In this document: piece by piece, positions 626 through 44,775 of the stretch | Numbering within the stretch: position 1 is the first letter of the stretch | How the letters are laid out: each line of letters starts with the position of its first letter | Made by a program: the position numbers and the translations under genes | The notes under the pieces: model-generated | The model's input: the letters and a program-made list of their open reading frames with translations, nothing else | What the model was told of the DNA's origin: nothing | Databases searched by the model: none | DNA from: Perkinsus olseni | Lineage: Eukaryota | Direction of reading: 5' to 3' | NCBI GenBank assembly: GCA_013115125.1 | Contig: JABANN010000218.1 | Location: 1 to 51,953, forward strand | DNA: 51,953 nucleotides

Positions 626-3603
626 GTATGTTCGTGTCCATTGGAGTGGGCGCGAGAGAGGCCGGTTCATTCCTCTGGATTAGCTTCATACTAGCGGCCC
701 TTGCATGCGGGTAAGCCGACTCGAAAAATGCAATTCATGCATCGCTTCGCTCCGCTCAGAATATCTGGTCTTTGTTACTGTGAGATGAGCTCTCTCGTCC
801 CAGTGGCTGGATCGGCCTACAGCTACGTCTACACCATCTTAGGCGAGCTACCGGCCGCTATTGTTGGCTTCGTGCGCATGCGTGCATACCACTCCTTTGC
901 AAACTCGTCTCAGGTTCTTTGTGTCGACAGCTCTATCTCGGCCGCTGCTGTTGCCAGAGCGTTCGCTGCCTACGTCAACGTTCTGCTTGGTGAAAAATTG
1001 CCGAAAATTTTGTAAGAATTTTTTGGCAAGAGAATGGGAATGATCATGTGGCATCTCGCTCAACTCCTAGTACTTGATAGCGTCAACGCCGGATTCCATC
1101 CTGTAGTTCTTCGAGTCCAATAGTTCGGACTTTTACGTCGTCCGATATCACCTTTTTAGAATTATAGGCGGGATACTTTGTGCTACTTTCACGACTACAA
1201 TGAGTGACTCGGCTCTGATCTGTCTCGGGTCACGACGCCATTATTCACCTCAGTCGCTTCGAAGTAGCCACGGCGGAAAATTACCGGGTCAAATTTTCCT
1301 GTTGGTATCTTATGGGTAAAATGACTTCTTTTCTAATTTCCGCTCGTCCAATTTCTTGTCCGTAGTAGTCCCATACCACCCCTTCACCAAATTTCATCCT
1401 CTATTCCTTAGGGCGAGCGAGATTAACATCAGGTACGACTACGACCTCGGATCTTCCGAGAATCTTTGGTCGATATCTTTGCTTTCCTTCCTGCTCTGCC
1501 TCCTCCTCGGGCTGCTCCTTTATCGCGGGATAAGGCAAACGAGCACGTGAGTGTGGGGAAAATTTTTCCAGAAAAAGCGGAAATTTTTTTATGATTTTTC
1601 AGTTTCAATAATTGGAGTACAATTCTGAATATGGCGGTGATTCTAGTGTTCATAGTTGGAGGTGAGTTCGCGGATGCAGCGCGCGCCCTGATGATCGATT
1701 TGTCAGGTTTCGTGTTCTTCCGTAGTGATATTTGGCATCCTACCACTCCTGAAGGGATCGTTCGCGGCTCTGGTCGAGTCTTTTTTGCGTATCTTGGTTT
1801 TGATGTTATCAACTGCTTGGCTGAGGAGACAACCGAGGTGAAAAAATCAGGAAAATTCAAATTTTCGGGAAATTAACGAAATTTGTCTCGAAGATCTCAA
1901 ATTTTCCAGTCGGTAATAACTCAACTCTAAAAATTTCGATAATTTTCCGGAGAAAGATACGAAAATGACATCTCTGGTTCGATCCTTGGCAGGGTTATTT
2001 CTTCAGGCACGTCGACTGGTCCCGCGGGCAATAATCATCACCATTGTTATTTGCTGTGTGGTGTACGTATTGGTCGCAGGTAGGCGGAGCGAAGCGATTC
2101 ATGTAATCCAATTCTAGCTTTTTAGTCGCTTTCGTCCATTTGGCACCCCTGGCTAGTGTTAGTATGGACGCACCGCTGGCGACAGCTTTTGAAGCGAGAG
2201 GAGCGACAGTCCTAGAGTAAGCAACCCTCTTCGTATCTTCCTTGCTTCGACCTTGGATATTCCATAGTCTATTCTGAACAGCTACCCTCGACAATATTTT
2301 CCGAAATTTTTTCAGATTCGTGGTCTCGCTCGGCGCCGTTGGTAACACGATGACCTCCGTCATGTCGTCCATGATCGTTCAGCCGAGAATCATGCTGAGG
2401 ATGAGCAGTGACGGCCTCCTCCCCGAAGCGGTGAATCGCATCTTATATAGTGAAACGGCTGATCGATTCCATCTTGGTCAGATCGGAAGACTCACGAGTT
2501 CTGGTACTCCTTCCACGGCTCTTATTATAACAATCGTTATGTCATCAGCGCTCGCCCTGGTGATCGATTTTGAAGCTCTCGCAGATATTGTATCTTTCGG
2601 AGCTTTGCTGAGCTTCCTGGCTGTATGCCTATGTACCATGTTAGGTAAAAAATTTCTAAAAAATTTGCCTGAAAATTCTCGGGAAACTTCTCTTTTCTCC
2701 AGGCCGAGTTGTGCCGCCCTCTGTCTATCGTCAGCGGGCAGCCGCCAGTCAACAGCCGCAAGAATACGGAAAACCCGACGCAAACGGAGCGCCCGCGGCG
2801 GCCAAGAGTAGAACGCTCGTAGCCGATCTGCGAGTTCCTTGGATCAACCTAAGATTCTCGTGCAAGCGCTCAGCTCCGACCACATTACCCCAGAGAGATA
2901 CTCCTCATGGTTCTTTTCTTCGAGGTGAGATTTTTTTCCCAATTTTCCCCGACTTTTCCTTTTTTTCAGGTTGCAACATTAGTTTTCGGTGCGCTATTTT
3001 TGCACGATCTTGTGAGTATCTTTTTTTACCTCCCTTTGTTAATCATTTGTCTCTTCGCCGGGATCGCCACTTCCCGCGTGGTCCGCACATATTTCAAGTA
3101 AGACGAATTTTATCAAACCCGACGACTCGAATGATAACAGTTACACTGATCTCGGCGATGGTAATGAGGACCCTCTGACCAAACCTTTCCGAGTGCCGGG
3201 AGCCCCAGAAGTCCCTCTAGCTGGGATGTTCATCAACACGTAAAGCCAGCGTGATAAGAGATTTATTATCGCCCTCGAACGATGGCTCAGGTACATGATT
3301 TCGGGCCTGCCATTCGCGGCCGTTCTCCGAGGATTGGCAGTGATGCTCGTCGCCATCACATTTTATTTTGCGTATTCAATTAGAAATTCGAACTTAGCGG
3401 CATCGGGAGAAACAGCGGTGCAAAAGATGTAAGCCGGGAGAATCGAACCGGGTGCCTCTCTCTTGACAGCCGCAACCTCTACCACTGTGCTACTCGAGAT
3501 GTTTCTCCATTGTAGGGACGGGAAGATAGCCGGACGATATGTGAACTTCGAGAATGACGACGACTCCACCAGCCTTGATGGAGACACCGAAGATGTGATT
3601 TAA
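626..3603 (+). CDS. APC-superfamily cationic amino acid transporter (CAT-like), multi-exon; N-terminal exon(s) not identified
   Basis: Spliced exons read GMFVSIGVGAREAGSFLWISFILAALACG (626-710), ISGLCYCEMSSLVPVAGSAYSYVYTILGELPAAIVGF, GRVFFAYLGFDVINCLAEETTE|ARRLVPRAII, SSMIVQPRIMLRMSSDGLLP, LADIVSFGALLSF and PFRVPGAPEVPLAG, all typical CAT motifs. GT-AG introns include 711-759, 1838-2006 and 3429-3515. The last exon ends DTEDVI-TAA at 3603. Confidence 0.88.
3429..3515 (-). other. 87-nt intron of the + strand CAT gene containing an antisense tRNA-Asp-like pseudo-tRNA
   Basis: The reverse complement reads TAGCACAGTGGTAGAGG-TTGCGG-CTGTCAA-GAGAG-AGGCA-CCCGGTTCGATTCTCCCGG: A-box, GTC anticodon loop and B-box at tRNA spacing, with poorly paired stems. 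Confidence 0.72.
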
Positions 3604-3955
3604 AGTCATGACCAGTTTCTTGTGAGTAACTTCTTCGTTGCGTTCGAGTGGACACCCCTCTCGAGAGGGAAAATCTGCGTAGTGCGCCGTATCCACTCTC
3701 ACACATCGGGGTCATTTCTTTGACGCACCGCTCCGCTGAGCTTCTCAAAGATAGGAAGCTTGCAAATTGGCGCAAACGTGATCAAAACTTGCAATCTCGC
3801 TCCGACTTGCATTTCCTCAACTGATGGCTACCCACTATAACAACACAACACTATGCTTCACTATAGAATTTTTCAGCCGATCTACGATAAGAATTTCAGC
3901 GAGGGTAGTCAACCAAAAATAGTATACAGGTAAAAGTAGGACAGAAATATAATCA

Positions 3956-6252
3956 TTAATCGGCCCATGCAGGAGCCATCAAAAGCAAAGCGCCAGGGAG
4001 CAGATCGGCACGCAACGGGCTTGCCGAATCCATCAGCTCGCCATCGATGCCGAACTCAGCGTATCTTCTATCAGGATGAGACGCATCTCGTTTAATAGTG
4101 GGTTCAAAAACAACAGAAGTAACTCGCTCGGTCGTCACTCGAGGATCTTCCAAGTGCTTGTTGTCCGTCACCTTCGCTACGATTTGGGTGAATCTGCAAA
4201 GAGGCGTATCTTGAGGTCAACAAATGTACCATCTTACGTAAATCGATCAACTGCTGGTATTATAACCAGCTCCATGTAGCCGCTTGCTAAATGAGCGTTT
4301 TGCATCCAAACGGTTCGGTCTTCGGTATTTCGCACGGCCACGTTCGTCAGCGACAACAAAGATACTCCCTTCTGATCATCAACTTCAACCCATCCCTCTT
4401 CGCCCGCCTTCACGATTGGTGACGGATCAAGCATCTTGTGACCATCAGATTTTTCCAAATATTTTGTAGTAATTTTATGCAACACACTGCAGGCCATGCA
4501 AGAGGTCCCGCAAGGCCCCACATCTTGCAACCACCGAAGCATCTTCGATTCCGCCGTCGGCAGCGGCTCGCTCGTCTCAGGCGAGGAGGACTCGGCCGTT
4601 AATTCAGAAACGACCGGGCCAACTAGATTACTAATTTCGGGCGCGCTGGTGGTCTTATGGCAGCCGAGTGAAGGAGCCGCAAGACGACGGTCTATCTTAC
4701 TCCGTAAATACCTGAAAAATACCCCTGCCAGGGATCGAACCCACGACCTTCCGCTTACCGGCATTTCATCCCAGTGTATGCCAAACTAAATCCTCCTTTT
4801 CCATGTCCAACGTCGCTCGGATCTCCCCCTCCTCGGAACACCGTCTGCGCACCCGCAAAGATATATCTCGTGGGGCCCAAAAATCTTTTATTTTCCGACC
4901 GGACATTAACCTCGGCGATAAAACCATAATTAAGTCCGCACAACGCCAAAGTAACCTGTGGTCCCTCAGGCAAGTATCTTGTTATTTTCATGACATCCAC
5001 AGGTCTCATCCAGCCATTAACAATAGCCGTCGCCGCTGTCAGGGGCTGCCTCATTCCGCCACTGGCCGCCAAAGAGTTGTGGCTTCCCGCTGGGAGTTGA
5101 CCAATTCCGAGAATCGCAAAAGCCTCGGACGCATCCGGTCGTTCGGCCATGCCGTTCACGAGTTCATAGACCAAACCATCGCCGCCAACTGCTGCAATCG
5201 CTCCTATTTTTTCCAAATCGATCGACCGAGCGATTTCACCCGCGTGGCCAGGATGGTCAGTCTGCACGACTGAGTACTTCCGATGGGCTCTGTCCAGCAT
5301 AGGTTGAAGAATTTCCCGGAACATCTTTTTTGCGCGTTTCCGACCGCCGATCGGGTTGATGACGACCAGCAGCTCTTTCTCGCGACCGTACTGGGGTGTC
5401 GTCCAGTCTGTTAAAATCTCCTCCCACTTGGCGACACCCGCAACAAAGGGAACTCGGAAAGTGAACCTGAATGAAAAGATATCTTTTGACTCTGCGATCT
5501 CCTAGGTCGACCTCAAGATATCTTACTCTCTCAACTCTCTTTTGAATGGGTCCTTGTGTTCTGTATAGCGACTCTTGAATGGATTCCGATGCTTACCCCG
5601 CAACTTCATAGAAGTAAAGATACGAATCGTCGTATCCCCTTCGACGTCGTAAGCATAAATATCTTCTGGGCGCCACTCGATCAGCAGCTCCCCGTACAAA
5701 TCATCGACGCGGATTCTGATGAAAATACCATAAAATCGCCGGACATCCTCCACGTACAACCGAAAATGACCCACTTATGCCGAACTTTATTTTACAAAAC
5801 TTAAGAACTTTCACGAACTAACATTTTCCGAAGAGTAAGTCCCTCGATCGAGGCTGTTTAAAAAGAAAAAAAATCCGTCACCAATTCCAAATTTCTGCAG
5901 TCCTCAATCGCGACCAGGAAGTGTTCGGATTCTGTATCTTGCATGCTTCAACCTCAAGATACTACCTCTTGCCAAAAGTAACATGGGCCGGCACATTCTT
6001 CCATCCCGGCTTGCCATGCTCCGTAAAAATACCAATATCGCTGGCAGCTGGTAACGACGACGACTCGCCATTATTTGTCGAATTAGCCAAATTAGTCGAA
6101 AGTTTTTCTCGCGCGCCCGGAGCCGAGTTGGGTTGACTTATCGTCGTCGCGGGCGATGCTGAACCGTGTGGAAGAATCTTCGGCTGCGAACCCGGCGGGG
6201 CTGACTCGATGCTCGCTTCATGTGGTACCTCCGTCGTAACAGGAACGGTCAT
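3956..6252 (-). CDS. Sphingosine/ceramide kinase-like protein (DAGKc family), multi-exon
   Basis: Motifs LLVVINPIGGRKRA, VGGDGLVYELVNG, LPAGSHNSLA, FLGPTRY and GIDGEL. Probable ATG at 6252 (MTVPVTTEV), stop at 3956-3958. Introns include 4712-4758. Confidence 0.88.
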
Positions 6253-6348
6253 AAATACAAAAGATAAGAGAACTGCAACGACAATCTTGCAATCTTGCAT
6301 TTCCTCAACGCTACACTGCAAATCGGCAGAGACCAGAGGATAAATGCT

Positions 6349-8990
<2,642 letters not shown>

Positions 8991-9082
8991 TGATTAAAAA
9001 CAACGAGTAAAATGGGCGGAAAATTCCGATCCCACGCTTAAACCAAAAACGTTCCAAATGAGGACGTAAAATATTTTGTAAA

Positions 9083-10840
9083 TCATTTCTCGCTGAATTT
9101 TGACTGAATTTTCTTGTCAAGTTTGCTTCGCTCCGCCTTCATCACTCCCCTCCGTCGTCGTTGCCGCTGCCGCACGCTCCTCTCGAGCGTTATGAAGGTC
9201 ATCAACAAGACCATCCATATCCCACTGATGCTCAGTCTGAGAAAAATGGACCTCGACTTGACCTCTTTTGTATCTTGCACGCATGAAGATAAGATACTCC
9301 CATCATTACTGCATCCCAGTAATCCATAATATTAACACTTCGATCGATCGCCTTCAACAACCAGAACTCGTACGGAGGAACCTACGAGAAATTTTCGTGC
9401 GCCACAAATTTTTTTTCAGATTTTTTCCGGAAAAAACTCACCGTCGTCGGCAAATCTTTAGCTGTCGTATCCGGCGGCATGGTCGACGGAATGGCAATAT
9501 CGTGCTCTCTTATGAGATAACTATAATCGATCGCCGGGGCGGGCGCTACTGTCGTTGCCACATCCGGGACCACAGCCCCTGAGCCGAACCGTGCGGCGCC
9601 TACCAAAGTCGAGCCTGAGAAGAGTAGAACGCGCGCATCGTCGAAGACCCGATCGATCCCACAATCGTTTCATTTTGACGTGATAGTAATTCGTTTCGAA
9701 ATGGCCAAATACGACGTTGAAGATATATTTTGGAAGATACCAATTGCTCATGAGAAAACGACGCATGAAGAGTCAATGGCTTCACCAAAAAGGAACTAGT
9801 CCCTCTTACCATGATTCACTCGAAGTTTCTCGGGTTACTCATAAAAATAGAACGAAAAAACAATGGGAGGGGATGCTCAATGGACTGCATTTCAGGAGTC
9901 CTCCTAGGATTGAATTTAACGTGTGAAAGACGATCCTGGGAGGGCTGTTGAACAGCCTGAATGTATACCAAAAAAGATACCAATCTCACGCGCTGCAAGA
10001 ACAATCACTAACTCTAGGATCACCAAGACTACCTAGCATCTTCGGGAGGGTTATAACTACGATACCAAAAAAATGAAGACTTATCGTGATATATTACAAT
10101 AACTACGATACCAAAAAAACTGTAGACAACGAAGATACCGAGATCACGATACATGAATTCGTCGATAGAAGTTCTATCATAGAACCCGTCGCACTACATT
10201 CAGCCGAGGACATGATCGGTTGGGTGATGTCAGGCCCGCCCATTGGAGTGGCGGGTGGCCGAGCTGAACCGATGCCTGGCAGGTTGGGCAGGGGGGGAAG
10301 CAAGGATGGGAACGGAGGTATCTAAGGTTACACTCATGCACAAGACGGAAAAAAAGATATCATCACGAAAACTGCAGCATGGCAGACCAAGCGTCCACCG
10401 AAGAATACCAATTTTGCTTATTATAAGAATTAACGGAAAGACAAATCTCTTCCCCGAATAAAAAATCTAACCAAATACCAGAATAGTAGTATCCAAGATC
10501 CATTTGCAAAAAAATCCGCGAGAACAAAATATTCGCGAGCGTAGATTTCGAGAGAATCTTAGGTTGAAGCGTGTCCCCCGCGGAAAGGCTATCGGTCCAG
10601 TACTACCTCGCTGTCGAGCATCCTAGGTCGAACCTTGATAGACATGACAAAATGGATGAAAGAAGCACACTGCAACGGCTCCGAGTGAGAATTCCGACAG
10701 ATAAGAAGACACCACACACAGGGATCGAACCCACGACCTTCTCATAATCGTCCACGCATACTAAGCGTTCGAGCTACATATTACCACGACTAGGAGGGTT
10801 CAGGACGCCGGTGAGGGTCACTAAGGAAGCTAGACTACAA
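9083..10840 (-). CDS. Hypothetical multi-exon protein with Pro/Thr-rich segments and a C-terminal TM helix followed by a basic tail; boundaries uncertain
   Basis: Exon-like segments LPPLPNLPGIGSARPPATPMGG (10103-10303), VVPDVATTVAPAP..DLPTT|gtgag (9442-9606) and LSISGIWMVLLMTFITLERSVRQRQRRRR (about 9150-9240), separated by AT-rich intron-like DNA. No recognised family. Confidence 0.45.
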
Positions 10841-11393
10841 CTCGAAAATGCTGATGATTGGAACGTGGGGCATCGGGAGAAACCATCTTCCGCTGGAAAG
10901 ATACCGCAACTTCACCGCACACAATGTTAAGATTCGTCCTGAGAAATTTTCCCAAATTATAGTCGTCGATGAACACTCGCGGGGATTACTGTCGACGGAC
11001 ACCCAGCTAGCCCGCCCGCCAAGATCTTCAAAATACTTCCGGCGAGTCGCCAAAACACACAATGAAGCTGTCTCCCAGAACGCTCAGGAGTCCCCTCACG
11101 GTTACTCAATTCCCGGGGGCGACGTTGAAGAAAGGCGGACTGGAGAGGAGGATCTAAAACTCAGAAAGAATGCATCCGAAAAAGAGAGTTCAATTTGGTT
11201 TGAAGGAAAATAAAAGCAGTTAACAGTAATAATTATCCAAGCACTAATAACTGCTCCCGAAGTACAAACGCAACAACTACCGAAATTGAAAAAAATCTGC
11301 CACCGATGACTTCTCTCAAACGGTGACCAGATTCTCGCAGCCGGTTCGAAACCGTGCCTCAGAAATTGCGAAGGGGAAAAGTAATGAAGGGCG

Positions 11394-13831
11394 TCAATGT
11401 ACCGCGGCGCGACCTTGGACCAAGCCTTGGATCGCGTAGAAAGTGCCGACGATAACAATACCTAGGACGACCGCTAGGGCTGTATAAGTTAGGTAGAGGC
11501 GGTATCCCCTTGGTTGCTGAATGCGAAGGTAAAACCAGAGGGGGAATATGTAGATTGAACCTGAGCGGAGCGAAGCTAGATTTTCAAATACCGGGTTGTT
11601 TGCTTTGAACTTACATGCTGTGAGAAGAATCCCACCTACGGCTTGGAAGTAGGCGAGCTGACTTCTAGCGACCACTGCCAACAGTGCGATGATGCTTATC
11701 ATCACACAACGCCATATAATCCTCCAGACAGTGCTTCCAGCGAAAGCGGCAGTTGTAGAGAATTTATGCTGAAAAAAATACCTCTGCCGGGAATAGAACC
11801 TCGGCCTTTCGGAGTACGGACGGGTGCTCGACCGCTACGCCAAACGAGGACTCACCAGCAGATGAGATATCTGCGTCTCGCTGCTAACCATCACCGGAAC
11901 CATGAGGACAGGGACGAATGCGAGCATCCTCACCAGAATGAAGGCACACGCTGTGTATATGAGCCACTTCGGGAGGACCCCCGCAGGAGCAACTAAAAAA
12001 TGACAAAACCGAGGATCGAACCTGCGACCGATTAAGCCATCTTCAATCTCGCCAATTCAAACTCCTGCTTCGCTCCGCCCACTTACGAGAGAAGTTTTCT
12101 ATGTAAACTTGCTCACAAGGGCCGTCACATAAAAGTATCCCCGCGGTTCCCAACACGTAAACGTAGAGTATCGAAATTATCAAACAGATGCACATCCACA
12201 TTGTGATACGGCTAGAGGGCGTGTCTGAAAAGGAATCTTTTCTGTGCGCACCAGCGAGGTCGTCGACGTACTCTTGACACAACCGTAGAAGGGCGGTAGG
12301 GATGGCGCCGCGCCAGAATTCCAAATGGACAGCGCGACTGCTGTGAAGAAATGCAAAACAGGCGGATCAGCAAGCTGCAGGTCATTCTCGACCTTTTTAA
12401 GGTCGGAAGATTCGACCAAAGTACCTGCGGCTACCTGAGTTGGGAAAGTTGTGGTATGGAAATGTGCACGCATGCGCACGACACTTACCAACATTCCCAA
12501 ACCACCAAGACCTGCGACTACGGCGGTCACTGCCAACACGCCATTGATCTCTTTCATAAAAGGACAAATGATTATTAACAAGGATAAAAAGGAAAATATG
12601 ATTATCCACCATTCAACTGAGCAAAGGAAAGATATTCTTCGCTGTGCGCAAAGATACGCCTACCGGATATAGAATCAAACAGAATATGCGTAGTGATGCC
12701 CATGGCCGCCTCAACGCCAATGACCGACATAAGATACTCCAGAAAGATGACCTAAGAATCAGGAAAAAAACTTCGCTCCGCTAAACTTTATTTTCCGCCA
12801 AGACCAACAAAAGATTCGCTACTAATCTCACAAGCTTCGTCTTACTGCCGAACCTAGGCTGCCGATCGCATTTGAATTTCGTGGCGCAGTGACGCTGCGC
12901 GAGATGGCCAACTTACCGCCGATGCAAACCTCCTCCCAAGGCGACCACCACAAAATTCGGCAAGAAAAGTGTACTCGCGTTCGAACGGTGGGACGCCTTG
13001 TTCTTCAGCAAACTGACAAACCTACAGCGGAGCGGGGCAATAATTCTTTCGCAACTTTCACTCATACCTACTTTTTCGTTACGCAAAGCCGCGCTGACCA
13101 TTCTGATACAAATGAATACCGAAACAGCGGTGAGCGCTTGAATCGGGATCGCCAGCAAGCCAGCGGTGGTGAACATGAACGGTACCGAGAGGCCGATGGT
13201 TGTTAGTGCATTCAAGCACGTGAGAACGAAGGACCTGACCCGGACCAGCAAGCAGTTACTCGACACGATCACAACAACGCTCCGCCACGTACTATACAAT
13301 TTGCAAAGTTTTTCGCTTGGAGGAGTCTTTTCATAAAGTCCAAGGAATCATTGGTTCTATGACGGAGTTTGCAGACCGTCATGATCACCATCATGAGGTG
13401 TCCTGTGAACATGTGTCGACATCTGCATCAGTATAGGTGCATAAATTGGAAAGAATCAACATCAAAAATAAACAAGAAATTACGATGGGCCACCCTTACC
13501 ATCTACTCTTGATGGATATTCCCTCTACGATGAGGCGCTCACGAAGAAGAACAAACATGAATGAACGATCAGTATCTAGTAGGTCACTACTGCACATTAC
13601 AAGTTAAAAGATACTACATGTACGCCATGAGTAGAGCTAGGCAGAACCCATGCCACCCCAACACTACCTCAAAGATATGCCGCTTTCCATTCTCTTACAT
13701 ACCGCACCATTCCCAACTCCCTTGCCTGACGTTGGCAGCTGGGCCTGGGTGGTGGTGGAGGGGTCCGTCGAGGCCTCGGTGGGGATGGTCGTAGCCACTG
13801 AGATCTCCGATGCTGAGTAGCAGTCAGTCAT
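11394..13831 (-). CDS. AAAP (Aa_trans) family amino-acid transporter, copy A (divergent)
   Basis: Exons MTDCYSAS..GNGAVCKRMESGISLR, SFVLTCLNALTTIGLSVPFMFTTAGLLAIP, EYTFLAEFCGGRLGG, HFFTAVALSIWNSGAAPSLPPFY and GSIYIFPLWFYL..QGRAAVH*. Multiple TM segments; same exon layout as copies B-E. The family call rests on the N-terminal G-L-S-x-P-F-x-F-x-x-A-G signature. Confidence 0.8.
11769..11855 (-). other. 87-nt spliceosomal intron filled by a degenerate tRNA-like sequence (A-box, B-box, T7)
   Basis: GTGAG-TCCTCGTTTGGCGTAGCGGTCGAGCACCCGTCCGTACTCCGAAAGGCCGAGGTTCTATTCCCGGCAGAGGTA-TTTTTTTCAG. The flanking exons join in frame (HLL|HKFST). Confidence 0.75.
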
Positions 13832-32418: not shown

Positions 32419-32484
32419 CGAAGAAGGAATACAATGGCTAAAAATAGAGGCGAAGCCTACTGGGCTCTTCCACTGATCAAATAT

Positions 32485-37864: not shown

Positions 37865-40347
37865 GGTTGAAAGAAAATCGCCCTAGCTCTCAATTCCAGA
37901 GACTCTCTGCTCATTCTGAATGAGCAGTGCTCATTGAGCACACGCCCGAGAGAGCTAACCAGGCCGAGCTCTGCCCACATCAACTACACACAGAGTCTTC
38001 GGTAGGCGATACGACCATGCAGCCGTGTCCAAACAGACTAACTTTGTCAATGGATGAGAATCGCGAGAAAATAAAGGCACTTGATTTAATCAACGGGATT
38101 GACGAAGGTGCTCTGGAACACAGGAAACTCCTCATGTATGGAGAGTAGCAGGAGCCACCGTATCTCAACTGAGACTGCCACTCCCTCGTTGCGGGTACAA
38201 AGCTGATATGAACAAATCAGAGCGCCACGTTCTCATTCTAGCCGCGTGGTGAATTCTGCGTCTCAAAGCCGAGACCATCAGCCTGCCGCGCTACTAACTC
38301 ACCAGATAGAATAACACGTAGCGGAATGAAGGTCCTGTAGTCGGTGCGAACCTGGTTAGACCAATCAGGTTGATGATGATACGACCCACTCGGAACTTCA
38401 AATCCTCATTGAGCCGCGGGATTCCCGAGTCGGGATCGAATTCACAGAGCCTCGGACAGTGTTTTACATGCAATGATTGCAGTGCAATCTGCCCGATTCA
38501 CTCTCAGAGCTGCGAAAGAACAACACCACAGAGGAACCGTGCAATAAGCTATCGAATATGAAATGTCCGTCTTTGAAAGACACGATACATCCAGCAGGCT
38601 CGGAGTCGTGACGCCAGGTTCACGCGAGAACCGGCCTCTCCGGGCACAGGCACACATTGTGTGCCACACAAGACTCGTGTGACCTATGATAAGCTCGATA
38701 TCAGACACGTCATTCTCACGTGGAGAGCTCTCTCTTGTGCCACAAGTGGTGTTCGTACTGATTTACCAGCGAGTATGCTTGGACTCAAGGCAATGCCAAA
38801 AATCACGCAATGCAATCATTCTGCATATGTCCGTCGAGACACTTCTTCGGCAAAGTCGTTCCTGTAACAGGAATCCTGTTGCATTTCTCGTCGGATGCTA
38901 TTCCACAGCCAGTCGATGAATGTCTCGGTGTAGCTCTAGACGAAGCGGAAATATACCCAACACGGCTGCGGAAATTATCGCCCCAGTGAGCGCCTGCCGT
39001 TGCCGACTATTGGGACCTAGCGCAGGCCGATTACTCTGTAGCCCCAGGCTTGTCCGAAGGCGCTAAGGTCACTGGGAGACAGTATGGCCATCTGACCATG
39101 ACGGGTGGTTATTGTGACCGGTGATTGCGAGTGGTGATTGCTAACGGTTATGGCGCGGGTCTTGTACGGAACACTGGGCCTTCAATGGGGCTGCCACCCG
39201 TCGAAGGTTAAACCCGACGGCACACTTTCTTATCCTTCCAAATCGAACCCCGCCAGTAGTGTCCCTCCACATCTTCGCACCGGCTGATGCAATAAGGCCA
39301 ACATCAATGAGCAACCTCCTTGTACGCTCGTAGCAACCACGCCCTCATGAACTCAGCTTGCTTGCGCAGAACAAGTCGTGCTCATGATATACCGCACAGC
39401 CCAGCGTTGAGCATGATCACAAACAGTACGATTTTCCATCCAGAGCATACTTGAGCTTCAAGTCTTGAAGCCCGCTGCCCCGTGACGTCGGTGCTCGAAA
39501 TGCCGTAGCAGCCATAATGTGAATTAGAAAGGACAGCATCATCAATAGAGTTACTCTACTGGAGTGCGTACAAAGGGTGATATGATGTTGGTACAATCAT
39601 CCTTCAAGTGGGGTGAATATCGGTAACTCCTTCGCAGCGTCGAGAAGGCTCATCCAACAGAAATCCTGCTACAAGATCTGGCAAACCTCTATCGTAGGAT
39701 TTTGCGATCAAGATCAGAAAAAGAATCAAATGAGAATTAGAATTCGTTGAAATGAAAATTAGATACAGTAGTGTATTTCCGACTAAAATTTGCATACGAA
39801 TTTACTGCTCGGCGGCAATACGGGAAATAACCTACGCATGTTTGTGCTCAACGCTCGCCGAACGCCGCCCCATAAACTACCCTTCGGGTCTTGCCATCAT
39901 CGGCGACACTTCCCAAATACACTCTGAGTGACCTGCTTCGGTTGATGGAGGGCTGGCGATCGGTCAATGCTCAATCACTGAGCCTCAACGACAACGAAAG
40001 TGTCCTCGGCAGTTCGGCTTCGGCACTCTGCTGCAAGCGCGACTTCAATTTGGCGCAGGTTACCTGCATGTCTCGCAGATAATTCCGGCTGCCTAAGAAA
40101 ACAGCTGCCCCCCCAGTCAAGACGATATCGACCTCTGTCACTAATTGGAGAACTGCAAACTCGAACGTATCTTTAAGGAAGTCAAACAAATGTTAAGTTA
40201 GAGATCAACATTCAAGTGAAATTCTAGTCTGCAGCAATGGTCCACTAGATATCCTACCTAGTATTACGACCTCATAATAGTAGTCCCCACCGGGGATAGA
40301 ACCCAGGTCGTTCGTAAGACAGTCATGAACGTTTCTTCCTACAGTAT

Positions 40348-43222
40348 TCAGACATCAGCCCAAATTTGAATGATACTGAAGACTGTGCCGAGGATAGCAG
40401 CTGCTGAGGCAACGATAATACCAACATAAAGACCGGCGACAACAGCGGAGCTGCCAGTCCTCATAACAAGGAGGTAAAACCCGAGCGGCACGACGAAAAC
40501 AAGAGCTGAGAAGAAACGACCATCTCACGCCCGCATGAACCCGTGCCAAGCCCCACCTATAGTGATCGCACATCCAGTGACAGCATAGAGTTGAGGCAGG
40601 TGATTTTGAAGGGCGACAGCCAAGCCACATACAACAACAGTGACCAGCCCCCGCCACAATACACGCAACTTAACCGACGCGGTTCGAACCTGATCATCGC
40701 TGAGCTTCACTTTGAAGAACCCATGCAGTAGCGGAGCTTCTACGGCCGATAATGAACCATCACAGCGAAATATGAGGACCACAATGTCGAGTGTGATTAC
40801 CATCAACACTCATGGCCGCATTCAACTGCGAGCAACGGCCCTTACAGGATAGACACCAGCAGGGGCACCTCGAATACCGCAATTCCCATTTCTGATTGCG
40901 AGTTTACACACCAATCATCCGCTGAGTCTGAGCGAAGATATTCCGAAGCGCGCCGGAATACTGCGATGGCCCGTATGAAAGAAGAATGGCAGCAGCATCA
41001 GAACTACTAAATCCCCACGATCGATACTGGTTCAAGCGGCAAGATGCGTGAGGTTCCTGAGATCCCCGTGTATTACCACAGTGGCCTCCGTCACGGCCAT
41101 CAACGGCGTCATTAACACAGGGATGGCCACGAGACCGTAGGCTATGTACACCAGATAGACGAGCACGAATGCTCCATAAGGTATTACTGAGAATAGAACC
41201 CACGACCATGCGAATGACAACCGAATGGCTTAACGATCCAGCCAAACCCACTCACCAGTTTGGTCACTCTCGAGTAGCGTCAGATAATTGGGCGGACATG
41301 CACTATCTCCACAGAGATGCATCCCCAACACTCCAACAACGCTCATATACAAAAATGAGCATCCAAGCGCCGCAGCCAGGCATCTCTCGAAATATCTTCG
41401 CCGTCCACTGTACCCCACTGCCACGCTCTTCTCCATCGTCTGACTGTCCTCTGTTGCCGCAGACGCAACCGTATCGGCCGGTGACGATGGTCGAACAGGG
41501 GATCCACCCTTCACGGACGGTCCTGAGGGTTTATCATTTCAAGATTTCCAACGGCGCCTGCGCCATTAATTCTATTCGCGGAGATGTAGGGACATAATTC
41601 CTCGAACAATTCTGCTATTGTGACGATCGCTCTACAGCGTAGCCTGAAGCTAGGACAAGGTGTTCTTGTATAGCTGGAACAGAGCTCACAAGAAATTGAG
41701 GATTAACTACAGGGCATGCCTCGCGCGAGGACTCTCCCAAGATTTGACTTACCAGAAACGACGCCCACATACGCCGGCAACGAGAAGGCGTTCGAAAAGG
41801 AGAAGACGACAACTCCGAGAAGAACGAAGAAATCGCCAACCCCTCCAGCGGGCGAATAGAATGGGATCATCGGTAAGCTAGATTGATCGTCCTCCGTCAA
41901 TCGAGCGATCGAGGCTATAATCTGACAAAAAGAAAGATACGCCCAGCACCACTTCCCGAATGGCTCCTACCAGTCCGATCAACCCGACCGTCAGGGCCAC
42001 TGGCGTAACGATCGCGCACACGCGTGTGATGTGCTCGTAGATCGGCACCACCGAGAGGGCGAAGGAAAGCACGGCAAATACCAGAACGCAGTAACCATCT
42101 GAAAGACGAATCTAGGACAGAATTTTTCGGGGAAATTATTACTAGCGATTCGAAAAAGTAACGATCCTGCCTCAGCCAGGGCAACCATGTTGGCAATTAA
42201 CGTTAATAAAAACTGTATACTGATCATCTGAAGAGAGGAGAAACCCGAGAATTCACCTCGACCTTCTCCGCCTCGCTTCAACTCGGATAAGGAAGGTAAC
42301 CGTCGATGAGCGTAAAATGAGCCCAACAACAACGACAACTGCGAGGCTCGTCATTCACCCCAGCAGTTGGCGGAAACAGCGCAAACAGCCCGGCCGGATC
42401 AACTACTGTTGATCGGCCGCAGTGAATCACGAGAACGGCCGAATTACGGCGATAATAACGACTTCCCCAAATGAATTTACACCACGGATAGGGTTCCTAG
42501 CCAACGAAGCCAGTCGATGAGAACTAGATTCTACAGAACGTAGTCCATAACAATTCACATGCAAATCGGCCAATCACTGGTGGAGTTCACACGACCCTCC
42601 TACAACTTTATACGCGAAAAAAAGCAAGGCCGGAGAGTATTTCAGCACGGGCCTGCCAACCCAATCACCGGTGTGATGAACACCCTCCCCCCAACCCACT
42701 TACCGTAGTGATTACGGAACGACCTTTCAAGCCGAAGAGCATCTCGGCGATAAAACCATATTCACGGTTCAAAACTTCAACACCTCTAAGCCTGGCATAT
42801 GACGTGACCTGAGCTAATTAATTGCCCTGCCCCGGGATCAAACCTGCGCCCTATTTACTACCGCTTCAGACTGCACTAAGTGAGCTTGCAGCCACACCGC
42901 TCCGCCAACTAGGCCGGTGATGAGCGACGCGATGATTAGGCTGAACCATCCCACTCGGGAGAATGCGTACGGGCTTGCGAGGTTGGTTGATATCAGTGCA
43001 TTCACACACACCAACATGAACGACCTGCGAAGGAATCTCAGGTTGAAGCTGGCATCAAACAAAAACGAACCGCTTCCGCATCCTCCAGCCCTCATCAGTC
43101 TCTTCAGCCACTGCGATTTCTTCGACCTCGGGCGCAGTCGAAAGATTCTCCTGGACGCCGATAATCTCGTTCGAACTCAGCGAAAATCTAATCTTCTTGT
43201 GGAGCCTGTCCACGATAGATGC
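40348..43222 (-). CDS. Divergent AAAP-family amino-acid transporter, copy F; 5' end unresolved (further exons may lie up to about 43950)
   Basis: Exons SFMLVCVNALISTNLASPYAFSRVGWFSLII, VLNREYGFIAEMLFG (about 42730-42785), MISIQFLLTLIANMVALAEAG, LVAIPVLMTPLMAVTE, LRVLWRGLV..LPQLYAVTG and ALVFVVPLGFY..QIWADV-TGA (40348-40350). Confidence 0.75.
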
Positions 43223-43995
43223 CTGAAAATAATATTACAACGGAAAACCGGAAATAATGGTAAAATTTCTATTTTTTTCGGTTTTTTCCTGCATTATGAA
43301 TTTCGTATAATCTTCCGGTGAATTTTCTGATTACTATTTGGGCGCAATTTCTGAATAATTTCCGGGTGTATTTTCAGAACAATTTTCGTATGATTTCGAG
43401 GGACGTTTTGCACCAATGACAATCTGCCCGAATCTTAGTTTTACTTTTTTCAACCAGACTGGGTTCGACCTACTTCGTGTCACGCAAGGAGCGAGAAAAG
43501 ATACGATTGAATCATAACCTTGTTGTACTCGATGAAGGTCGAAGCGTGCAACTTGCAGAAAAATAGATACTTTCCCAGAATTTTAGCACGGAATTCTGGT
43601 ATGTATCAACCGACGAAGGAAGAGTTGATTTCAAGTCGGGATTCTCACGAAGGCGAAGATATTCTCGTCGAACAAGGAGCTACAGTAGCCGGAAAAAACT
43701 GATGAAAAAACCGTAAAATGCAGTATTACCTTCTCGGGGCCTTCTTCCGGCTGGGAATCGGGAGTGGGTTGTATAGTGGGGATTAGAAATAGGTAGCAGA
43801 CTTGAAGATTCGACGACCCGAAGTGCTGCTTTTGATTTAGCGCACGCCGTGGTGATCGATTTATCCTCGGACCTCTGCGTATCTTATGCCTACGGATACC
43901 AGATAAGTCGCGAACTCGTCGTGAGTGCTGTATCCTTTTGTCATGCTGGGAAGATACGGAATAGGTCGGGTCGCTGAGCAGTGTTCGAGCTCGCT

Positions 43996-44775
43996 ATGTC
44001 TTTTCATCGTGCGTTCGCAAGAGTTGTCTGCAACTACAACAAGAGCATCGAAGGCTCCGTGCCATGGTAGTTCGGGGCGTATCTTAGGTTGAAGCATGGC
44101 AATCACAGGTACCAAGTGAAGCGGGAGAAGTCGCCATTCCAACAAGTGTGGGACGAAGTCTTCACGCCCGTCTGGTTCAAGCTCGTTAAGGGCCCGTAAG
44201 TCTCCCCCACCTTAGAGAGCCGCCGGTTGAGCATACACAGGGGAATGCCTTCAAGTGATGTTGACTATTTCCAACCTATTAGGAATACTAATTGCGATGG
44301 ATAGGATTACCTACACCCAGCCTTCCTCCCGCCGGGGACGATGAAACCGCACAAACCGGGCTGGTCAGGTACGAGCGTTGGGAATATAACGCCCTGGTTG
44401 CTCGCTACAGAGGGATGGGCATTATGGCCGATGATGCTATGAATGATAAGGTATCCGGTTCGATCCCTGGCGACGGCATTTTATCCATTTCAGGATATGA
44501 TCGTCGAACGAGCGCTGGACATCATCCCCGAGGATATCCGTATCCAAAGGTACAGACGGATGATGCGAGGTAAGGTCGACCTCTAGGCGTATCTTTCGAC
44601 CGTTTCATTACCCTCAGGCGCGGTTCTGGCTGGTAGAAAGCTTCATCTTCCGCTAGAGCTACAGAACTACGACCCGATGGTGCCCTACATGGCGCCCTAC
44701 ATCGAAGAGGCCAAATTCCAGATGCAGGAGGAACAGGAGCTGCTGGCCTTTCATCCCTGGGACCGACGACTGTAA
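43996..44775 (+). CDS. QCR7: Cytochrome bc1 complex 14-kDa subunit (QCR7/UQCRB), alveolate type
   Basis: Exons 43996-44066, 44109-44195, 44369-44450, 44494-44569 and 44618-44775 join in frame: ..RYRGMGIMADDAMNDK|DMIVERALDIIPEDIRIQRYRRMMR|GAVLAGRKLHLPLELQNYDPMVPYMAPYIEEAKFQMQEEQELLAFHPWDRRL. It may continue via a further intron at 44772. Confidence 0.85.

What the first reader, a model, noticed from the sequence alone, without database searches (positions are those of the whole stretch)
1976..44493. Family of tRNA-derived (Pol III B-box) elements in small spliceosomal introns of unrelated genes
Seen in sequence: about 11 elements with consensus (AAGGTC)nnnGGTTCGATCCCTGGCAGGGGTA(TTTTT), i.e. 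a tRNA variable loop, T-arm, acceptor 3' strand and T-run. Positions: 1976-2006 (CAT intron, ending at the AG), 3429-3498 (antisense), 4712-4758, 6484-6521, 6610-6648 (antisense), 8682-8713, 10711-10784, 11769-11855, 11993-12030, 40284-40310 (3' flank of copy F) and 44451-44493 (QCR7 intron 3). 4729-4751 and 10719-10741 are identical over 23 nt. The B-box is kept while most stems are broken, and both orientations occur. In sense copies the Pol III-like T-run often doubles as the polypyrimidine tract before AG. Established: GGTTCRANNC is the TFIIIC-binding B-box, and extra-TFIIIC sites and tRNA-derived SINEs exist elsewhere. Inference: either an intron-resident mini-SINE family or selected intronic TFIIIC/Pol III sites at about one per 1.3 kb in the left gene cluster. 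I know of no description of this in this lineage.
Basis: partly seen in the sequence, partly recalled or inferred. Interest (0 to 1): 0.88.

Follow-up and report, generated by a model that had tools for sequence, protein, structure and literature searches.

The report
tRNA-like repeats filling small Perkinsus introns
A family of short, decayed tRNA-like repeats sits inside the tiny introns of several unrelated genes of the clam parasite Perkinsus olseni, almost always pointing the same way as the gene, and in several cases its T-rich tail serves as the end signal of the intron.

Summary
All 11 listed sites carry the motif and I found a twelfth (42809-42861). GGTTCGATCCC with up to 1 mismatch occurs 9 times against 1.2 expected (0 of 100 shuffles). 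A profile finds 11 robust copies, and none of 20 shuffles gave a hit.

The window is Perkinsus olseni. Eight copies lie in introns supported by RNA contigs, P. olseni protein models or a solved QCR7 chain. Two more abut a likely splice donor. Two lie in 3' flanks, not introns. Nine of the 10 intronic copies are sense to the host gene. In 4 to 5, the T-run plus AG is the acceptor.

They are not tRNA genes: the Rfam tRNA model misses them and the stems are broken. Two element introns occupy positions shared with a paralog whose introns lack the element, so those introns predate it.

Best reading (0.55): a decayed tRNA-derived, SINE-like or pseudogene family lodged in old introns and co-opted as splice signal. 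An introner-like spread, selected TFIIIC sites and decayed intron-hosted tRNA genes remain open. No genome was available, so nothing was tested genome-wide.

The parts
1966..2006 (+). E1: element 3' half (B-box GGTTCGATCC, acceptor-like strand, T-rich tail, CAG) at the 3' end of the 169-nt intron 1838-2006 of the amino-acid permease (CAT) gene. Sense orientation.
   Evidence: E 1.7e-6. Intron from ORF joining; P. olseni model P0012 starts at 2004; upstream exon matches Pfam AA_permease_2 below its cutoff (E 1.1e-4, 21.8 bits against 27).
4712..4758 (-). E2: the whole 47-nt intron of the sphingosine-kinase gene is the element (GTAAG, variable loop, T-arm, acceptor-like strand, A, T5, CAG). Sense orientation.
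   Evidence: RNA contigs of three runs (X11, X15, X19) skip 4709-4755, which equals 4712-4758 given the GTA ambiguity. The spliced ORF stays open. P0001 is continuous across the junction. Profile E 2e-9.
6476..6541 (-). E3: a longer copy with a D-loop-like GTGGTAGTGGG and a T-arm, starting directly after the donor GTGAGT that follows kinase exon 6602-6540. Sense orientation. The 3' end of this intron is unresolved.
   Evidence: E 3.3e-8. The exon end comes from P0002. The spliced-leader acceptor of the next mRNA is at 6274-6273.
6604..6656 (-). E4: a whole 53-nt kinase intron that is the reverse complement of an element lying on the + strand at 6610-6656. This is the only antisense intronic copy. 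The donor GTAATAAATACC is the complement of the element's 3' end.
   Evidence: P0002 junction DAPDAAV|ALMKKCW; coordinates; profile E 4.2e-7 on the + strand.
8675..8713 (-). E5: element at the 5' end of the 177-nt kinase intron 8537-8713. Sense orientation. It has its own A, T5 and AG, which are not used as the acceptor in the gene model.
   Evidence: P0002 junction RELTV|MLTL; profile E 4.3e-8.
10704..10784 (-). E6: a longer copy (TAGCTC..., AAGGTCGTGGGTTCGATCCC). It starts at a GTAAT that follows the end of an RNA contig at 10785, downstream of the stop codon of the Aa_trans gene. On the same strand as that transcript.
   Evidence: E 8e-6. Contig record 3 of X1 ends at 10785, which is a contig end and not a demonstrated splice. 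ARAGORN at 90% threshold calls 10710-10799.
11769..11855 (-). E7: a whole 87-nt, phase-0 intron made of GTGAGT, a 71-nt tRNA-like body (A-box-like TGGCGTAGCGG, B-box-like GGTTCTATTCC), T7 and CAG. Sense orientation.
   Evidence: P0008 (100% identical P. olseni protein) and P0009 (P. marinus) are continuous across SHLL|HKFS. Spliced ORF. Same position and phase as paralog intron 17551-17611. Profile E 2.4e-7.
11993..12086 (-). E8: a 94-nt, phase-1 intron made of GTAAGTGG, the GCGGAGCGAAGC motif, 42 nt, then the T-arm GGTTCGATCC, acceptor-like strand, A, T6 and AG. Sense orientation.
   Evidence: P0008 and P0009 are continuous across ENFS|LAPAG. An RNA contig piece ends at 12087 while the record continues. 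Same position and phase as paralog intron 17749-17796. Profile E 3.2e-6.
40273..40313 (-). E9: a copy about 40 nt downstream of the stop codon of the last tandem Aa_trans paralog. It is in the 3' flank or UTR, on the same strand as that gene, and has no T-run.
   Evidence: E 1.6e-6.
42809..42861 (-). B-box variant GGTTTGATCC. Sense orientation.
   Evidence: P0011 and P0010 carry the junction QSEA|VTSY; the P0011 alignment to the window is. GT..AG confirmed. Profile E 2.6e-6.
44451..44493 (+). E11: a whole 43-nt intron of the QCR7 (complex III 14-kDa subunit) gene. Sense orientation.
   Evidence: PDB chain 9fq7_3I residues 53-79 match the exon ending at 44450, and residues 80-99 match the exon starting at 44494 with 20 of 20 identical. 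Profile E 5.9e-8.
3429..3498 (-). E12: a tRNA-pseudogene-like piece (TAGCACAGTGGTAGAGG ... GGTTCGATTC ... TCTTTT) in the convergent 3' zone. It begins at the CAT stop codon, antisense to CAT, and lies about 460 nt downstream of the sphingosine-kinase stop on that gene's strand. Not intronic, and only weakly similar to the main family.
   Evidence: Profile E 0.86.

Best explanation
These are decayed copies of a tRNA-derived short interspersed element, either a mini-SINE or a retroposed or duplicated tRNA pseudogene. The element has a Pol III-type B-box and, directly after the acceptor-like strand, an oligo-T terminator.

In the gene-dense genome of Perkinsus olseni the copies survive where they are harmless. 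That means in pre-existing small spliceosomal introns (10 of 12 copies) and in 3' flanks (2 of 12).

They are kept almost only in the sense orientation. In that orientation the element's A, T-run and (C)AG lie where an intron needs its polypyrimidine tract and acceptor. In at least four introns that tail is the acceptor region in use.

Introns here are held near a minimal length of 43 to 94 nt. The element remnant therefore now makes up most or all of several introns.

Shown: the family, its locations, its orientation, splicing of the host introns, and that two host introns predate the element.

Inferred: the tRNA origin, the mode of spread (retroposition), and the cause of the sense bias. That cause could be selection for a usable pyrimidine tract. 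It could also be priming of an oligo-U-tailed Pol III transcript on the A-rich strand opposite intronic T-runs.
For: 1. The family is real. There are 11 profile hits with E from 2e-9 to 8e-6 and 0 of 20 shuffles give a hit. Motif enrichment is shown.

2. It is tRNA-like over about 40 nt: AAGGTC, a T-stem, TTCGATC, a T-stem, a 7-nt acceptor-like strand, A and a T-run. The longest copies add A-box-like D-arm sequence. Lowered-threshold ARAGORN anchors pseudo-tRNA calls on 9 profile-hit sites: 8 of the 12 elements plus the dropped 45701 hit.

3. The copies resemble each other far more than they resemble the two real tRNA-Arg genes, which score only E 1.5 to 4.4 against the profile.

4. The copies share the 3' end and differ in 5' extent, from about 30 to about 80 nt. 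This is the pattern expected of 5'-truncated or 5'-eroded copies.

5. The T-run is intrinsic to the element. It is present in E5 and E4, where it is not next to the acceptor in use.

6. Host introns are real: RNA contigs for E2, a PDB chain for E11, and P. olseni protein models for E4, E5, E7, E8 and E10.

7. Element introns E7 and E8 have the same position and phase as introns of paralog copy A, whose introns lack the element. The element therefore entered old introns.

8. Orientation follows the gene strand across three strand switches. Nine of 10 intronic copies are sense (one-sided P 0.011). Eleven of 12 copies lie on the strand of the nearest co-oriented gene (P 0.003).

9. In E1, E2, E7 and E8 the acceptor AG lies 19 to 21 nt after the B-box.

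10. Perkinsus is already known for amplified tRNA genes: more than 500 copies of five types in P. marinus (PMC3706591, sections 10 and 13 read).

11. Other short repeat families sit in the same introns, so intron-resident repeats are general here.
Against: 1. The Rfam tRNA covariance model finds none of the copies. This holds for the whole window at E up to 10 and for a 1.45-kb slice holding three of them. Folds are no better than shuffles, with z from -1.4 to +1.4. 'tRNA-derived' therefore rests on local sequence likeness only.

2. I saw no target-site duplications, no poly-A tail and no partner LINE. Retroposition is not shown.

3. In E7 and E8 a full-length element fills the intron from the donor hexamer to the AG. 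Random deletion of the old intron sequence does not easily explain this.

4. In long introns the elements or their A-box-like modules still abut the donor (E5 in 177 nt; the GCGGAGCGAAGC module in 291 nt). A passive-passenger model does not predict this.

5. The 5' parts of the longest copies differ (TAGCTC..., TAGCACAGTGG..., TGGCGTAGCGG...). They may come from several tRNA species rather than one master.

6. Everything rests on one 52-kb window. Nine of the 12 copies lie in 12 kb.
Confidence: 0.55

Rival explanations
1. Introner-like unit. The repeated unit is a complete intron made of a donor, a tRNA-like body, a T-run and CAG. It spreads as such, creating new introns or overwriting resident ones, for example by reverse splicing into exon junctions followed by reverse transcription and gene conversion.
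For: - Six small introns are homologous from just after the GT to the AG: E2, E4, E7, E8, E10 and E11.
- E5 carries its own T5 and AG although that AG is not used.
- E3 and E7 both start directly after GTGAGT.
- A-box-like modules follow the donor directly in the introns starting at 2080, 8334, 12086, 7500 and 7731.
- There is a strong sense bias.
- Introners are known in the related dinoflagellates and in Amoebophrya (PMC7789003, passages; review PMC11282704, passages).
Against: - The two introns that could be tested (E7, E8) sit at positions and phases shared with a divergent paralog lacking the element. They are therefore not new intron positions.
- One whole-intron copy is antisense (E4), which reverse splicing cannot produce.
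- Two copies lie outside introns (E9, E12).
- No TIR or TSD was seen.
- Donor sequences differ between copies (GTAAG, GTAGT, GTATC, GTGAGT).
- Donor hexamers are common to all introns, so sharing them is weak evidence of homology.
Confidence: 0.15
2. Decayed intron-hosted tRNA genes. Perkinsus amplifies real tRNA genes, many of them inside introns and co-oriented with the host gene. These elements are the pseudogene remains of several tRNA species after birth-and-death turnover, and not a mobile SINE family.
For: - P. marinus has hundreds of copies of a few tRNA genes (PMC3706591).
- The 5' parts of the longest copies look like D-arms of different tRNA types.
- E12 keeps both boxes in tRNA spacing.
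- The parts that are kept are those conserved among all tRNAs.
Against: - The copies share family-specific features that the two real tRNA genes of the window lack. These include a T-run directly after the discriminator and a YAGGGGY acceptor strand.
- The copies score far better against each other than the real tRNAs score against them.
- None is an intact tRNA gene.
Confidence: 0.15
3. Selected intronic B-box sites. The elements persist because TFIIIC, with or without Pol III, binds the B-box. They would act as chromatin boundaries, roadblocks or small-RNA units.
For: - Seven of 11 copies keep an exact GGTTCRANNC, although the stems are broken.
- The CpG inside TTCGATC is kept in 7 of the 11 profile copies, and in E12.
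- Density is about one per 1.3 kb in the left 12 kb.
Against: - Nine copies were found through the B-box, so its conservation is partly ascertainment.
- Flank columns (AAGGTC, YGG, A and T-run) are conserved too.
- The roughly 23-kb tandem array has none inside genes.
- Most copies lack an A-box.
Confidence: 0.1

Closest known systems
tRNA-derived SINEs and tRNA retro-pseudogenes (general class, named from my own knowledge)
   Same: Short multi-copy dispersed elements with a tRNA-like internal Pol III B-box. The copies are decayed and differ at the 5' end. They survive mainly in introns and flanks of genes.
   Different: - The recognisable part is only the 3' half of a tRNA, about 30 to 80 nt, ending in an oligo-T run instead of a poly-A or LINE-like tail.
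- No tRNA-unrelated body, TSD or LINE partner was seen.
- The orientation bias is sense.
- Copies make up entire 43 to 94-nt introns.
Alu exonisation, where an antisense Alu poly-T tract supplies a polypyrimidine tract and 3' splice site (recalled, no call)
   Same: A homopolymer tail of a Pol III-derived repeat is used by the spliceosome as a pyrimidine tract followed by AG.
   Different: Here the T-run is on the element's own sense strand, as a terminator-like tail. It serves the normal acceptor of a constitutive small intron and does not create a new exon.
Introner elements of Micromonas, Aureococcus, dinoflagellates and Amoebophrya (PMC11282704 and PMC7789003, passages read)
   Same: Many introns in unrelated genes share one sequence from near the donor to the acceptor, and the element ends coincide with splice sites.
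   Different: - Known introners are mostly DNA transposons with TIR and TSD, or with inverted and direct repeats. They create new intron positions.
- Here the body is tRNA-like and no TIR or TSD was seen.
- The two testable introns are at ancestral positions.
Extra-TFIIIC (ETC) sites and chromosome-organising clamps of yeasts (recalled, no call)
   Same: B-box consensus without a functional tRNA gene.
   Different: ETC sites are defined by TFIIIC occupancy, which cannot be tested here. They are mostly intergenic and few in number, and are not a decaying repeat family inside introns.
Amplified tRNA genes of Perkinsus marinus targeted by Dada transposons (PMC3706591, sections 10 and 13 read)
   Same: Same genus. 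Unusual multiplication of tRNA-type sequences, including 349 tRNA-Leu, 116 tRNA-Gly and 46 tRNA-Ile(ATT) copies.
   Different: Those are near-intact genes, more than 95% identical to their consensus. The paper does not describe intronic tRNA-like remnants. No Dada sequence was looked for or seen in this window.

Membership tests
tRNA-derived SINE / tRNA pseudogene | Internal Pol III B-box (GGTTCRANNC) in a T-arm context | tested here: met
   Exact in 7 of the 11 profile copies and in E12. The other 4 have 1 to 3 changes. The motif occurs 17 times against 3.9 expected.
tRNA-derived SINE / tRNA pseudogene | A-box (TRGCNNAGTGG) about 30 to 60 nt upstream of the B-box | tested here: inconclusive
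   Present in recognisable form only in E7 (TGGCGTAGCGG), E12 (TAGCACAGTGG), E6 (TAGCTC...) and as a variant in E8. Absent from the short copies.
tRNA-derived SINE / tRNA pseudogene | Global tRNA likeness (cloverleaf, covariance model) | tested here: not met
   The Rfam tRNA model finds only the 2 tRNA-Arg genes in the whole window and nothing in 10650-12100 at E up to 10. Fold z-scores range from -1.4 to +1.4 in 10 of 10 copies. Only lowered-threshold ARAGORN calls them, among many false calls.
tRNA-derived SINE / tRNA pseudogene | Retroposition marks: target-site duplications, an A-rich or defined 3' tail, 5' truncation | tested here: inconclusive
   - A common 3' end with an oligo-T run directly after the discriminator is clear in 6 of the 12 copies (E1, E2, E5, E7, E8, E11), with weaker T-rich tails in E4 and E12.
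- The 5' extent is variable.
- No TSD was seen by inspecting the flanks.
- There is no poly-A.
tRNA-derived SINE / tRNA pseudogene | High copy number dispersed over the genome | not testable with these tools
   No genome is held. Within the window there are 12 copies in 52 kb. A metagenome scan gave only relatives at 35% identity.
Introner elements | Whole introns of unrelated genes share one sequence, and element ends coincide with splice sites | tested here: met
   Six whole-intron copies: E2, E4, E7, E8, E10 and E11.
Introner elements | Element introns are at new, lineage-specific positions (intron gain) | tested here: not met
   E7 and E8 share position and phase with introns of paralog copy A that lack the element. 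The other introns could not be tested.
Introner elements | Transposon termini (TIR, TSD or IR/DR at the splice sites) | tested here: inconclusive
   None seen by eye in the flanks printed. No systematic search was made.
ETC / TFIIIC-only sites | TFIIIC occupancy without Pol III transcription | not testable with these tools
   Needs ChIP or CUT&Tag.
ETC / TFIIIC-only sites | B-box conserved beyond neutral expectation | tested here: inconclusive
   B-box columns are 60 to 90% conserved, but so are AAGGTC, YGG, the A and the T-run. Nine copies were ascertained through the B-box.
Functional tRNA genes | Intact cloverleaf above the detection thresholds | tested here: not met
   ARAGORN at default settings and the Rfam gathering threshold find only 35957-36030 and 50090-50163.

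The most novel reading that the evidence does not exclude
Perkinsus carries a tRNA-like intron family in which the mobile unit is the intron itself: a donor, a tRNA-like body with A- and B-box modules, an oligo-T run and CAG. The unit spreads in the sense orientation into existing intron positions. It could do so in two ways:
- oligo-U-tailed Pol III transcripts prime reverse transcription on the A-rich strand opposite intronic pyrimidine tracts;
- excised introns reverse-splice into exon junctions and are copied back.

Either way, the sequences of old small introns are progressively overwritten by tRNA-derived modules that supply their own splice signals.
Probability: 0.15. Interest if true: 0.8.

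Novelty: new variant of a known kind. Interest (0 to 1): 0.5.

Why it matters
The family would be a compact natural example of a Pol III-type repeat supplying splice signals to very small introns. It would also give a handle on how intron sequence turns over while intron position stays fixed.

The sense bias, the fixed 19 to 21-nt spacing from B-box to acceptor, and full-length copies filling ancestral introns can all be tested across the public Perkinsus assemblies and their divergent haplotypes. If the intron-replacement or pyrimidine-tract-targeting reading held, it would add a new route to the introner debate, in a lineage sister to dinoflagellates where introners are rampant.

On the practical side, these repeats and the other intron-end modules could mislead gene prediction in Perkinsus. 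Lowered-threshold ARAGORN already places pseudo-tRNA calls on the elements, one of them spanning an exon-intron boundary.

Tried and rejected
- Whole-genome search. No genome is held for this window, so no genome-wide enrichment test was possible.
- Protein Atlas search. It confirmed the DAGK family but gave no taxon.
- Metagenome scan with the sphingosine-kinase exon. It returned only two loci at 35% identity, which are not Perkinsus and were not used.
- Rfam at permissive thresholds. It gave no tRNA hit on any element, so the parent tRNA isotype could not be assigned. My guesses (Ile-like for E6, class II-like D-arm for E7, initiator-like D-arm for GCGGAGCGAAGC) come from recalled tRNA sequences and remain leads only.
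- ARAGORN at lowered thresholds. It profile-hit sites (8 elements plus the dropped 45701 hit), but makes 45 calls at 80% and 241 at 70%, so the isotypes are meaningless.
- RNA folding of 10 copies. No significant structure, so I rejected a structured-RNA function.
- Branch-point reading of the B-box. I saw no yUnAy-type match in TTCGATC or downstream by inspecting the intron sequences printed, whereas other introns of the window show TNA motifs. I rejected this as a main explanation, by eye only.
- Alignment of the GCGGAGCGAAGC copies with the long element copies. MAFFT places the motif over the A-box region of E7, but downstream similarity is absent except in 8321 and 12069. I did not merge the families.
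- Profile hit 45701-45731 (E 1.4e-3). It lies antisense in what I read as a coding exon and was dropped as probable chance. The hit at 41189-41207 (E 0.75), which I read as coding, was also dropped.
- Read laying printed only 15 of 59 joints. Direct RNA junctions for E1, E4, E5, E7, E8 and E10 were therefore not seen, and the call cannot be repeated.
- Pfam on single QCR7 exons gave nothing. The label was then confirmed through PDB.
- Literature. The searches were 'Perkinsus + introns + tRNA', 'Perkinsus + SINE', 'introner + Perkinsus', 'tRNA-derived + intron gain + SINE', 'Perkinsus + genome assembly + transposable elements + introns', and 'Perkinsus olseni + polyploidy...'. None turned up a description of this family. 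The P. olseni genome paper I recall is not in the library, and supplements are closed. Repbase entries or supplementary repeat tables could already list such an element.

Full report
**Organism and setting**

A single exon (4758-5462, minus strand) is 97% identical to a Perkinsus olseni 'sphinganine kinase lcb4'. An exon of the neighbouring transporter gene is 100% identical to a P. olseni protein and 80% identical to a P. marinus protein. The window is therefore P. olseni or something very close to it.

GC content is about 0.46 to 0.54. The only bona fide tRNA genes are two tRNA-Arg(TCT) copies at 35957-36030 and 50090-50163.

Yes.
- GGTTCGATCCC with up to 1 mismatch occurs 9 times against 1.21 expected, and 0 of 100 shuffles reach 9.
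- The B-box consensus GGTTCRANNC occurs 17 times against 3.92 expected, again 0 of 100 shuffles. Eight hits are in the elements, two in the real tRNAs, and seven elsewhere, which is about the chance level.
- A profile of the copies run with nhmmer finds 11 hits with E from 2e-9 to 8e-6. None of 20 block shuffles gives any hit below E 0.01.
- The two real tRNA-Arg genes score only E 1.5 to 4.4 against this profile. The copies are therefore a family and not just 'anything with a T-arm'.

An ungapped column count over 12 copies shows that conservation is not confined to the B-box. It also covers the AAGGTC in front, the YGG after it, the A at the discriminator position and the T-run.

All 11 listed sites are confirmed, and 42809-42861 is an additional copy. 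A thirteenth hit (45701-45731, E 1.4e-3) lies antisense inside what I read as a plus-strand coding exon. I dropped it as probable chance.

**Where the copies lie**

RNA contigs of four coded runs were laid on window 1-20000. Only 15 of 59 joints were printed.

| Copy | Location | Evidence |
|---|---|---|
| E2 | whole 47-nt intron 4712-4758, sphingosine kinase | RNA contigs of three runs (X11, X15, X19) skip 4709-4755, which equals 4712-4758 because of a GTA repeat. The spliced frame stays open. P0001 is continuous across the site. |
| E11 | whole 43-nt intron 44451-44493, QCR7 | PDB chain 9fq7_3I, a 'ubiquinol-cytochrome c reductase complex 14kD subunit', matches the exon ending at 44450 with residues 53-79. 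It matches the exon starting at 44494 with residues 80-99, 20 of 20 identical. |
| E7, E8 | whole introns 11769-11855 (87 nt) and 11993-12086 (94 nt), Aa_trans gene | P0008 and the P. marinus protein P0009 run without a break across SHLL\|HKFS and ENFS\|LAPAG. An RNA contig piece ends at 12087 while the record continues. |
| E10 | whole 53-nt intron 42809-42861, second Aa_trans gene | P0011 and P0010 carry QSEA\|VTSY. |
| E5 | 5' end of the 177-nt kinase intron 8537-8713 | P0002 junction RELTV\|MLTL. |
| E4 | whole 53-nt kinase intron 6604-6656, antisense | P0002 junction DAPDAAV\|ALMKKCW. |
| E3 | starts directly after donor GTGAGT at 6541 | P0002 exon end. The acceptor of this intron is unresolved. 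|
| E1 | 3' end of the 169-nt CAT intron 1838-2006 | ORF joining; P0012 starts at the acceptor. |
| E6 | 10704-10784 | Begins at a GTAAT where an RNA contig ends (10785). This is a contig end and not a demonstrated splice. |
| E9 | 3' flank of the last tandem Aa_trans paralog |. |
| E12 | 3429-3498, starts at the CAT stop codon in the convergent 3' zone |. Not intronic. |

For E3, the next mRNA is spliced-leader trans-spliced at AG 6274-6273. The loose end TGAGCCAAGA is the complement of the end of PmaSL1, as printed in PMC3101222.

Tally: 12 copies, of which 10 are in or at introns and 2 are in flanks. Eight of the intron assignments have independent support. Two (E3, E6) are partial.

**Orientation and position**

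Nine of the 10 intronic copies are sense to the host gene (one-sided binomial P 0.011). Eleven of 12 copies lie on the strand of the nearest co-oriented gene (P 0.003). The orientation follows the gene strand through three switches: CAT on plus, the left cluster on minus, the 42.8-kb gene on minus, QCR7 on plus.

In E1, E2, E7 and E8 the acceptor AG lies 19 to 21 nt after the B-box, and the element's A plus T5-7 is the pyrimidine tract. In E10 and E11 the distance is 25 to 26 nt.

The T-run belongs to the element and not to the host intron. E5 has A, T5 and AG although that AG is not the acceptor in the gene model. The antisense E4 has the tail at the donor end.

The 'intron enrichment' is less telling. 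Ten of 12 copies gives P about 5e-4 against a rough intron share of 0.33 that I estimated by hand from three gene models. It gives P about 0.15 if introns are about 65% of the non-coding DNA. Exclusion from exons is enough to explain it.

**They are not tRNA genes or structured RNAs**

The Rfam tRNA model does not report any copy. This holds for the whole window at E up to 10 and for a 1.45-kb slice containing E6, E7 and E8. RNA folds of 10 copies have z-scores from -1.4 to +1.4.

ARAGORN calls them only when its thresholds are lowered, together with dozens of false calls. 'tRNA-derived' thus rests on local likeness over about 40 nt, plus D-arm or A-box-like sequence in the longest copies. Those are TGGCGTAGCGG in E7, TAGCACAGTGG in E12 and TAGCTC in E6.

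**Did the elements create the introns?**

For the two cases I could test, no. The Aa_trans gene holding E7 and E8 is a divergent paralog of the tandem array at about 17 to 40 kb. I built both proteins from RNA-supported and model-supported exons and marked the intron positions.
- The E8 intron (phase 1, after ...ENFS) matches intron 17749-17796 of copy A (48 nt, phase 1, after ...ASLA).
- The E7 intron (phase 0, after ...SHLL) matches intron 17551-17611 (61 nt, phase 0, after ...GRLL).

Two further introns are shared as well. Copy A's introns give no profile hit. The intron positions are therefore older than the gene duplication, and the element sequence is a later arrival in them.

This argues against a plain introner (intron-gain) reading for these two. 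It does not explain how a full-length element came to fill the intron from donor hexamer to AG.

**Context: other intron-end repeat modules**

The same introns hold further recurrent motifs.
- GCGGAGCGAAGC has 10 copies. Three follow a donor directly: introns 2080-2125, 8044-8334 and 11993-12086.
- AATTTCGTGGCGCAGTGACGC has 4 copies. Two begin at the T of a donor GT (7500, 7731).
- A GTATCTTG...CAAGATAC pair occurs in four RNA-confirmed introns.

The A-box-like pattern GGCGNAGYGR, which covers the first two motifs, occurs 13 times against 1.73 expected, with 0 of 100 shuffles reaching 13. Whether these are 5' halves of the same tRNA-like family is open. MAFFT aligns GCGGAGCGAAGC over the A-box region of E7, but little else aligns.

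At the least, P. olseni introns are densely populated by short repeats that tend to abut splice sites.

**Explanation**

The best-supported reading (0.55) is a decayed tRNA-derived interspersed element. It has a B-box, an acceptor-like strand and an immediate oligo-T tail. It has lodged in pre-existing small introns and 3' flanks. It is retained almost only in the sense orientation, where its tail doubles as pyrimidine tract and acceptor.

The mode of spread and the cause of the sense bias are inferred. The bias could come from selection for a working acceptor region. It could also come from priming of an oligo-U-tailed Pol III transcript on the A-rich strand opposite intronic T-runs. Sense-strand T5+ runs outnumber A5+ runs 33 to 13 in the minus-gene block.

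Rivals:
- An introner-like unit that spreads as a whole intron or overwrites resident introns (0.15).
- Remains of once-functional intron-hosted tRNA genes of several isotypes (0.15). Known tRNA gene amplification in P. marinus fits this (PMC3706591, sections 10 and 13).
- B-box sites kept by selection for TFIIIC binding (0.10).

**Novelty**

My library searches found no description of this family or of tRNA-like introns in Perkinsus. I also read passages of PMC7789003, PMC11282704, PMC3101222 and PMC3706591.

A repeat table or a Repbase entry could therefore already list it.

I rate it a new variant of a known kind: a tRNA-derived SINE or pseudogene with unusually intimate, sense-biased use as small-intron sequence. 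Interest is moderate (0.5). It is, however, a clean and testable case for how intron content turns over.

Noticed in passing
window 744-755, 2084-2095, 7687-7698, 7942-7953, 8319-8330, 9125-9136, 11565-11576, 12067-12078 (12-mer); 12771 and 45579 (10-mer): The motif GCGGAGCGAAGC recurs 8 to 10 times on both strands. In three introns it follows the donor directly: GTAG| at 2080 and 8334, and GTAAGTGG| at 12086. It fits the A-box-like pattern GGCGNAGYGR, which occurs 13 times against 1.73 expected. It may be a 5' module of the tRNA-like family or a separate intron-end repeat.
   Followed up: partly
window 7308-7319, 7486-7497, 7717-7728 (minus); 12876-12887 (plus): A 21-nt unit, AATTTCGTGGCGCAGTGACGC, is present in 4 copies. 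In two kinase introns it begins exactly at the T of the donor GT (7500, 7731). RNA contigs of two runs leave the window at 7499 and 7730 into one and the same foreign sequence (table 7), so a further copy exists elsewhere.
   Followed up: partly
introns 4194-4237, 5467-5526, 5716-5965, 9237-9309 (minus): RNA-confirmed introns share (G)TATCTTG... and ...CAAGATAC pieces. These form an inverted pair near the intron 5' end and look like a third intron-resident repeat.
   Followed up: no
window 6272-6274 (minus): The sphingosine-kinase mRNA carries the Perkinsus spliced leader. The loose end TGAGCCAAGA after 6274 is the complement of the end of PmaSL1. The P. olseni model P0002 that fuses the kinase and the sphingosine kinase may therefore join two mRNAs of one polycistron.
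   Followed up: partly
window 6314 to 12630: All four runs show a joint that skips 6315 bases with non-intron ends (AC..AA) and a shorter side of 23 letters (table 5). It could be a shared repeat or a structural difference. It is unexplained.
   Followed up: no
window 7479 and 12894: The loose-end sequences before 7479 (X11, X15) and behind 12894 (X1) are reverse complements of each other (table 7). This hints at an inverted repeat or a rearrangement between strains.
   Followed up: no
window about 17000-40500: Tandem array of Aa_trans-type paralogs, with repeated 12-mers at 17192, 23940, 28653 and 32540 and internal 46-nt duplications. Depth is high in the RNA-type runs at 16.7 to 18.7 kb. 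No tRNA-like element lies inside the array genes.
   Followed up: partly
window 42824-42918 (minus): ARAGORN at 90% threshold calls a 95-nt 'tRNA-Val' here. Its 3' half is element E10 and its A-box-like GGCGGAGCGG (42897-42906) lies in the coding exon (...GLVGGAVW...). This is probably chance, but it is a tRNA-like span across an exon-intron boundary.
   Followed up: no
window 8044-8334 (minus): The 291-nt kinase intron holds a (GATC)n microsatellite and two further B-box-like remnants, AAGGTCGATCCTAGG and CCTTCGAACC.
   Followed up: no
window 51755-51944 (plus): Tandem repeat with units containing ACCGCTGGTAGT, spaced 21 and 42 nt apart at the right end of the window.
   Followed up: no
window 2100 and 2451: RNA-type contigs of X1, X15 and X19 leave the window inside two CAT introns into unrelated sequence (table 7). 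This suggests haplotypes with different intron content at the same positions.
   Followed up: no
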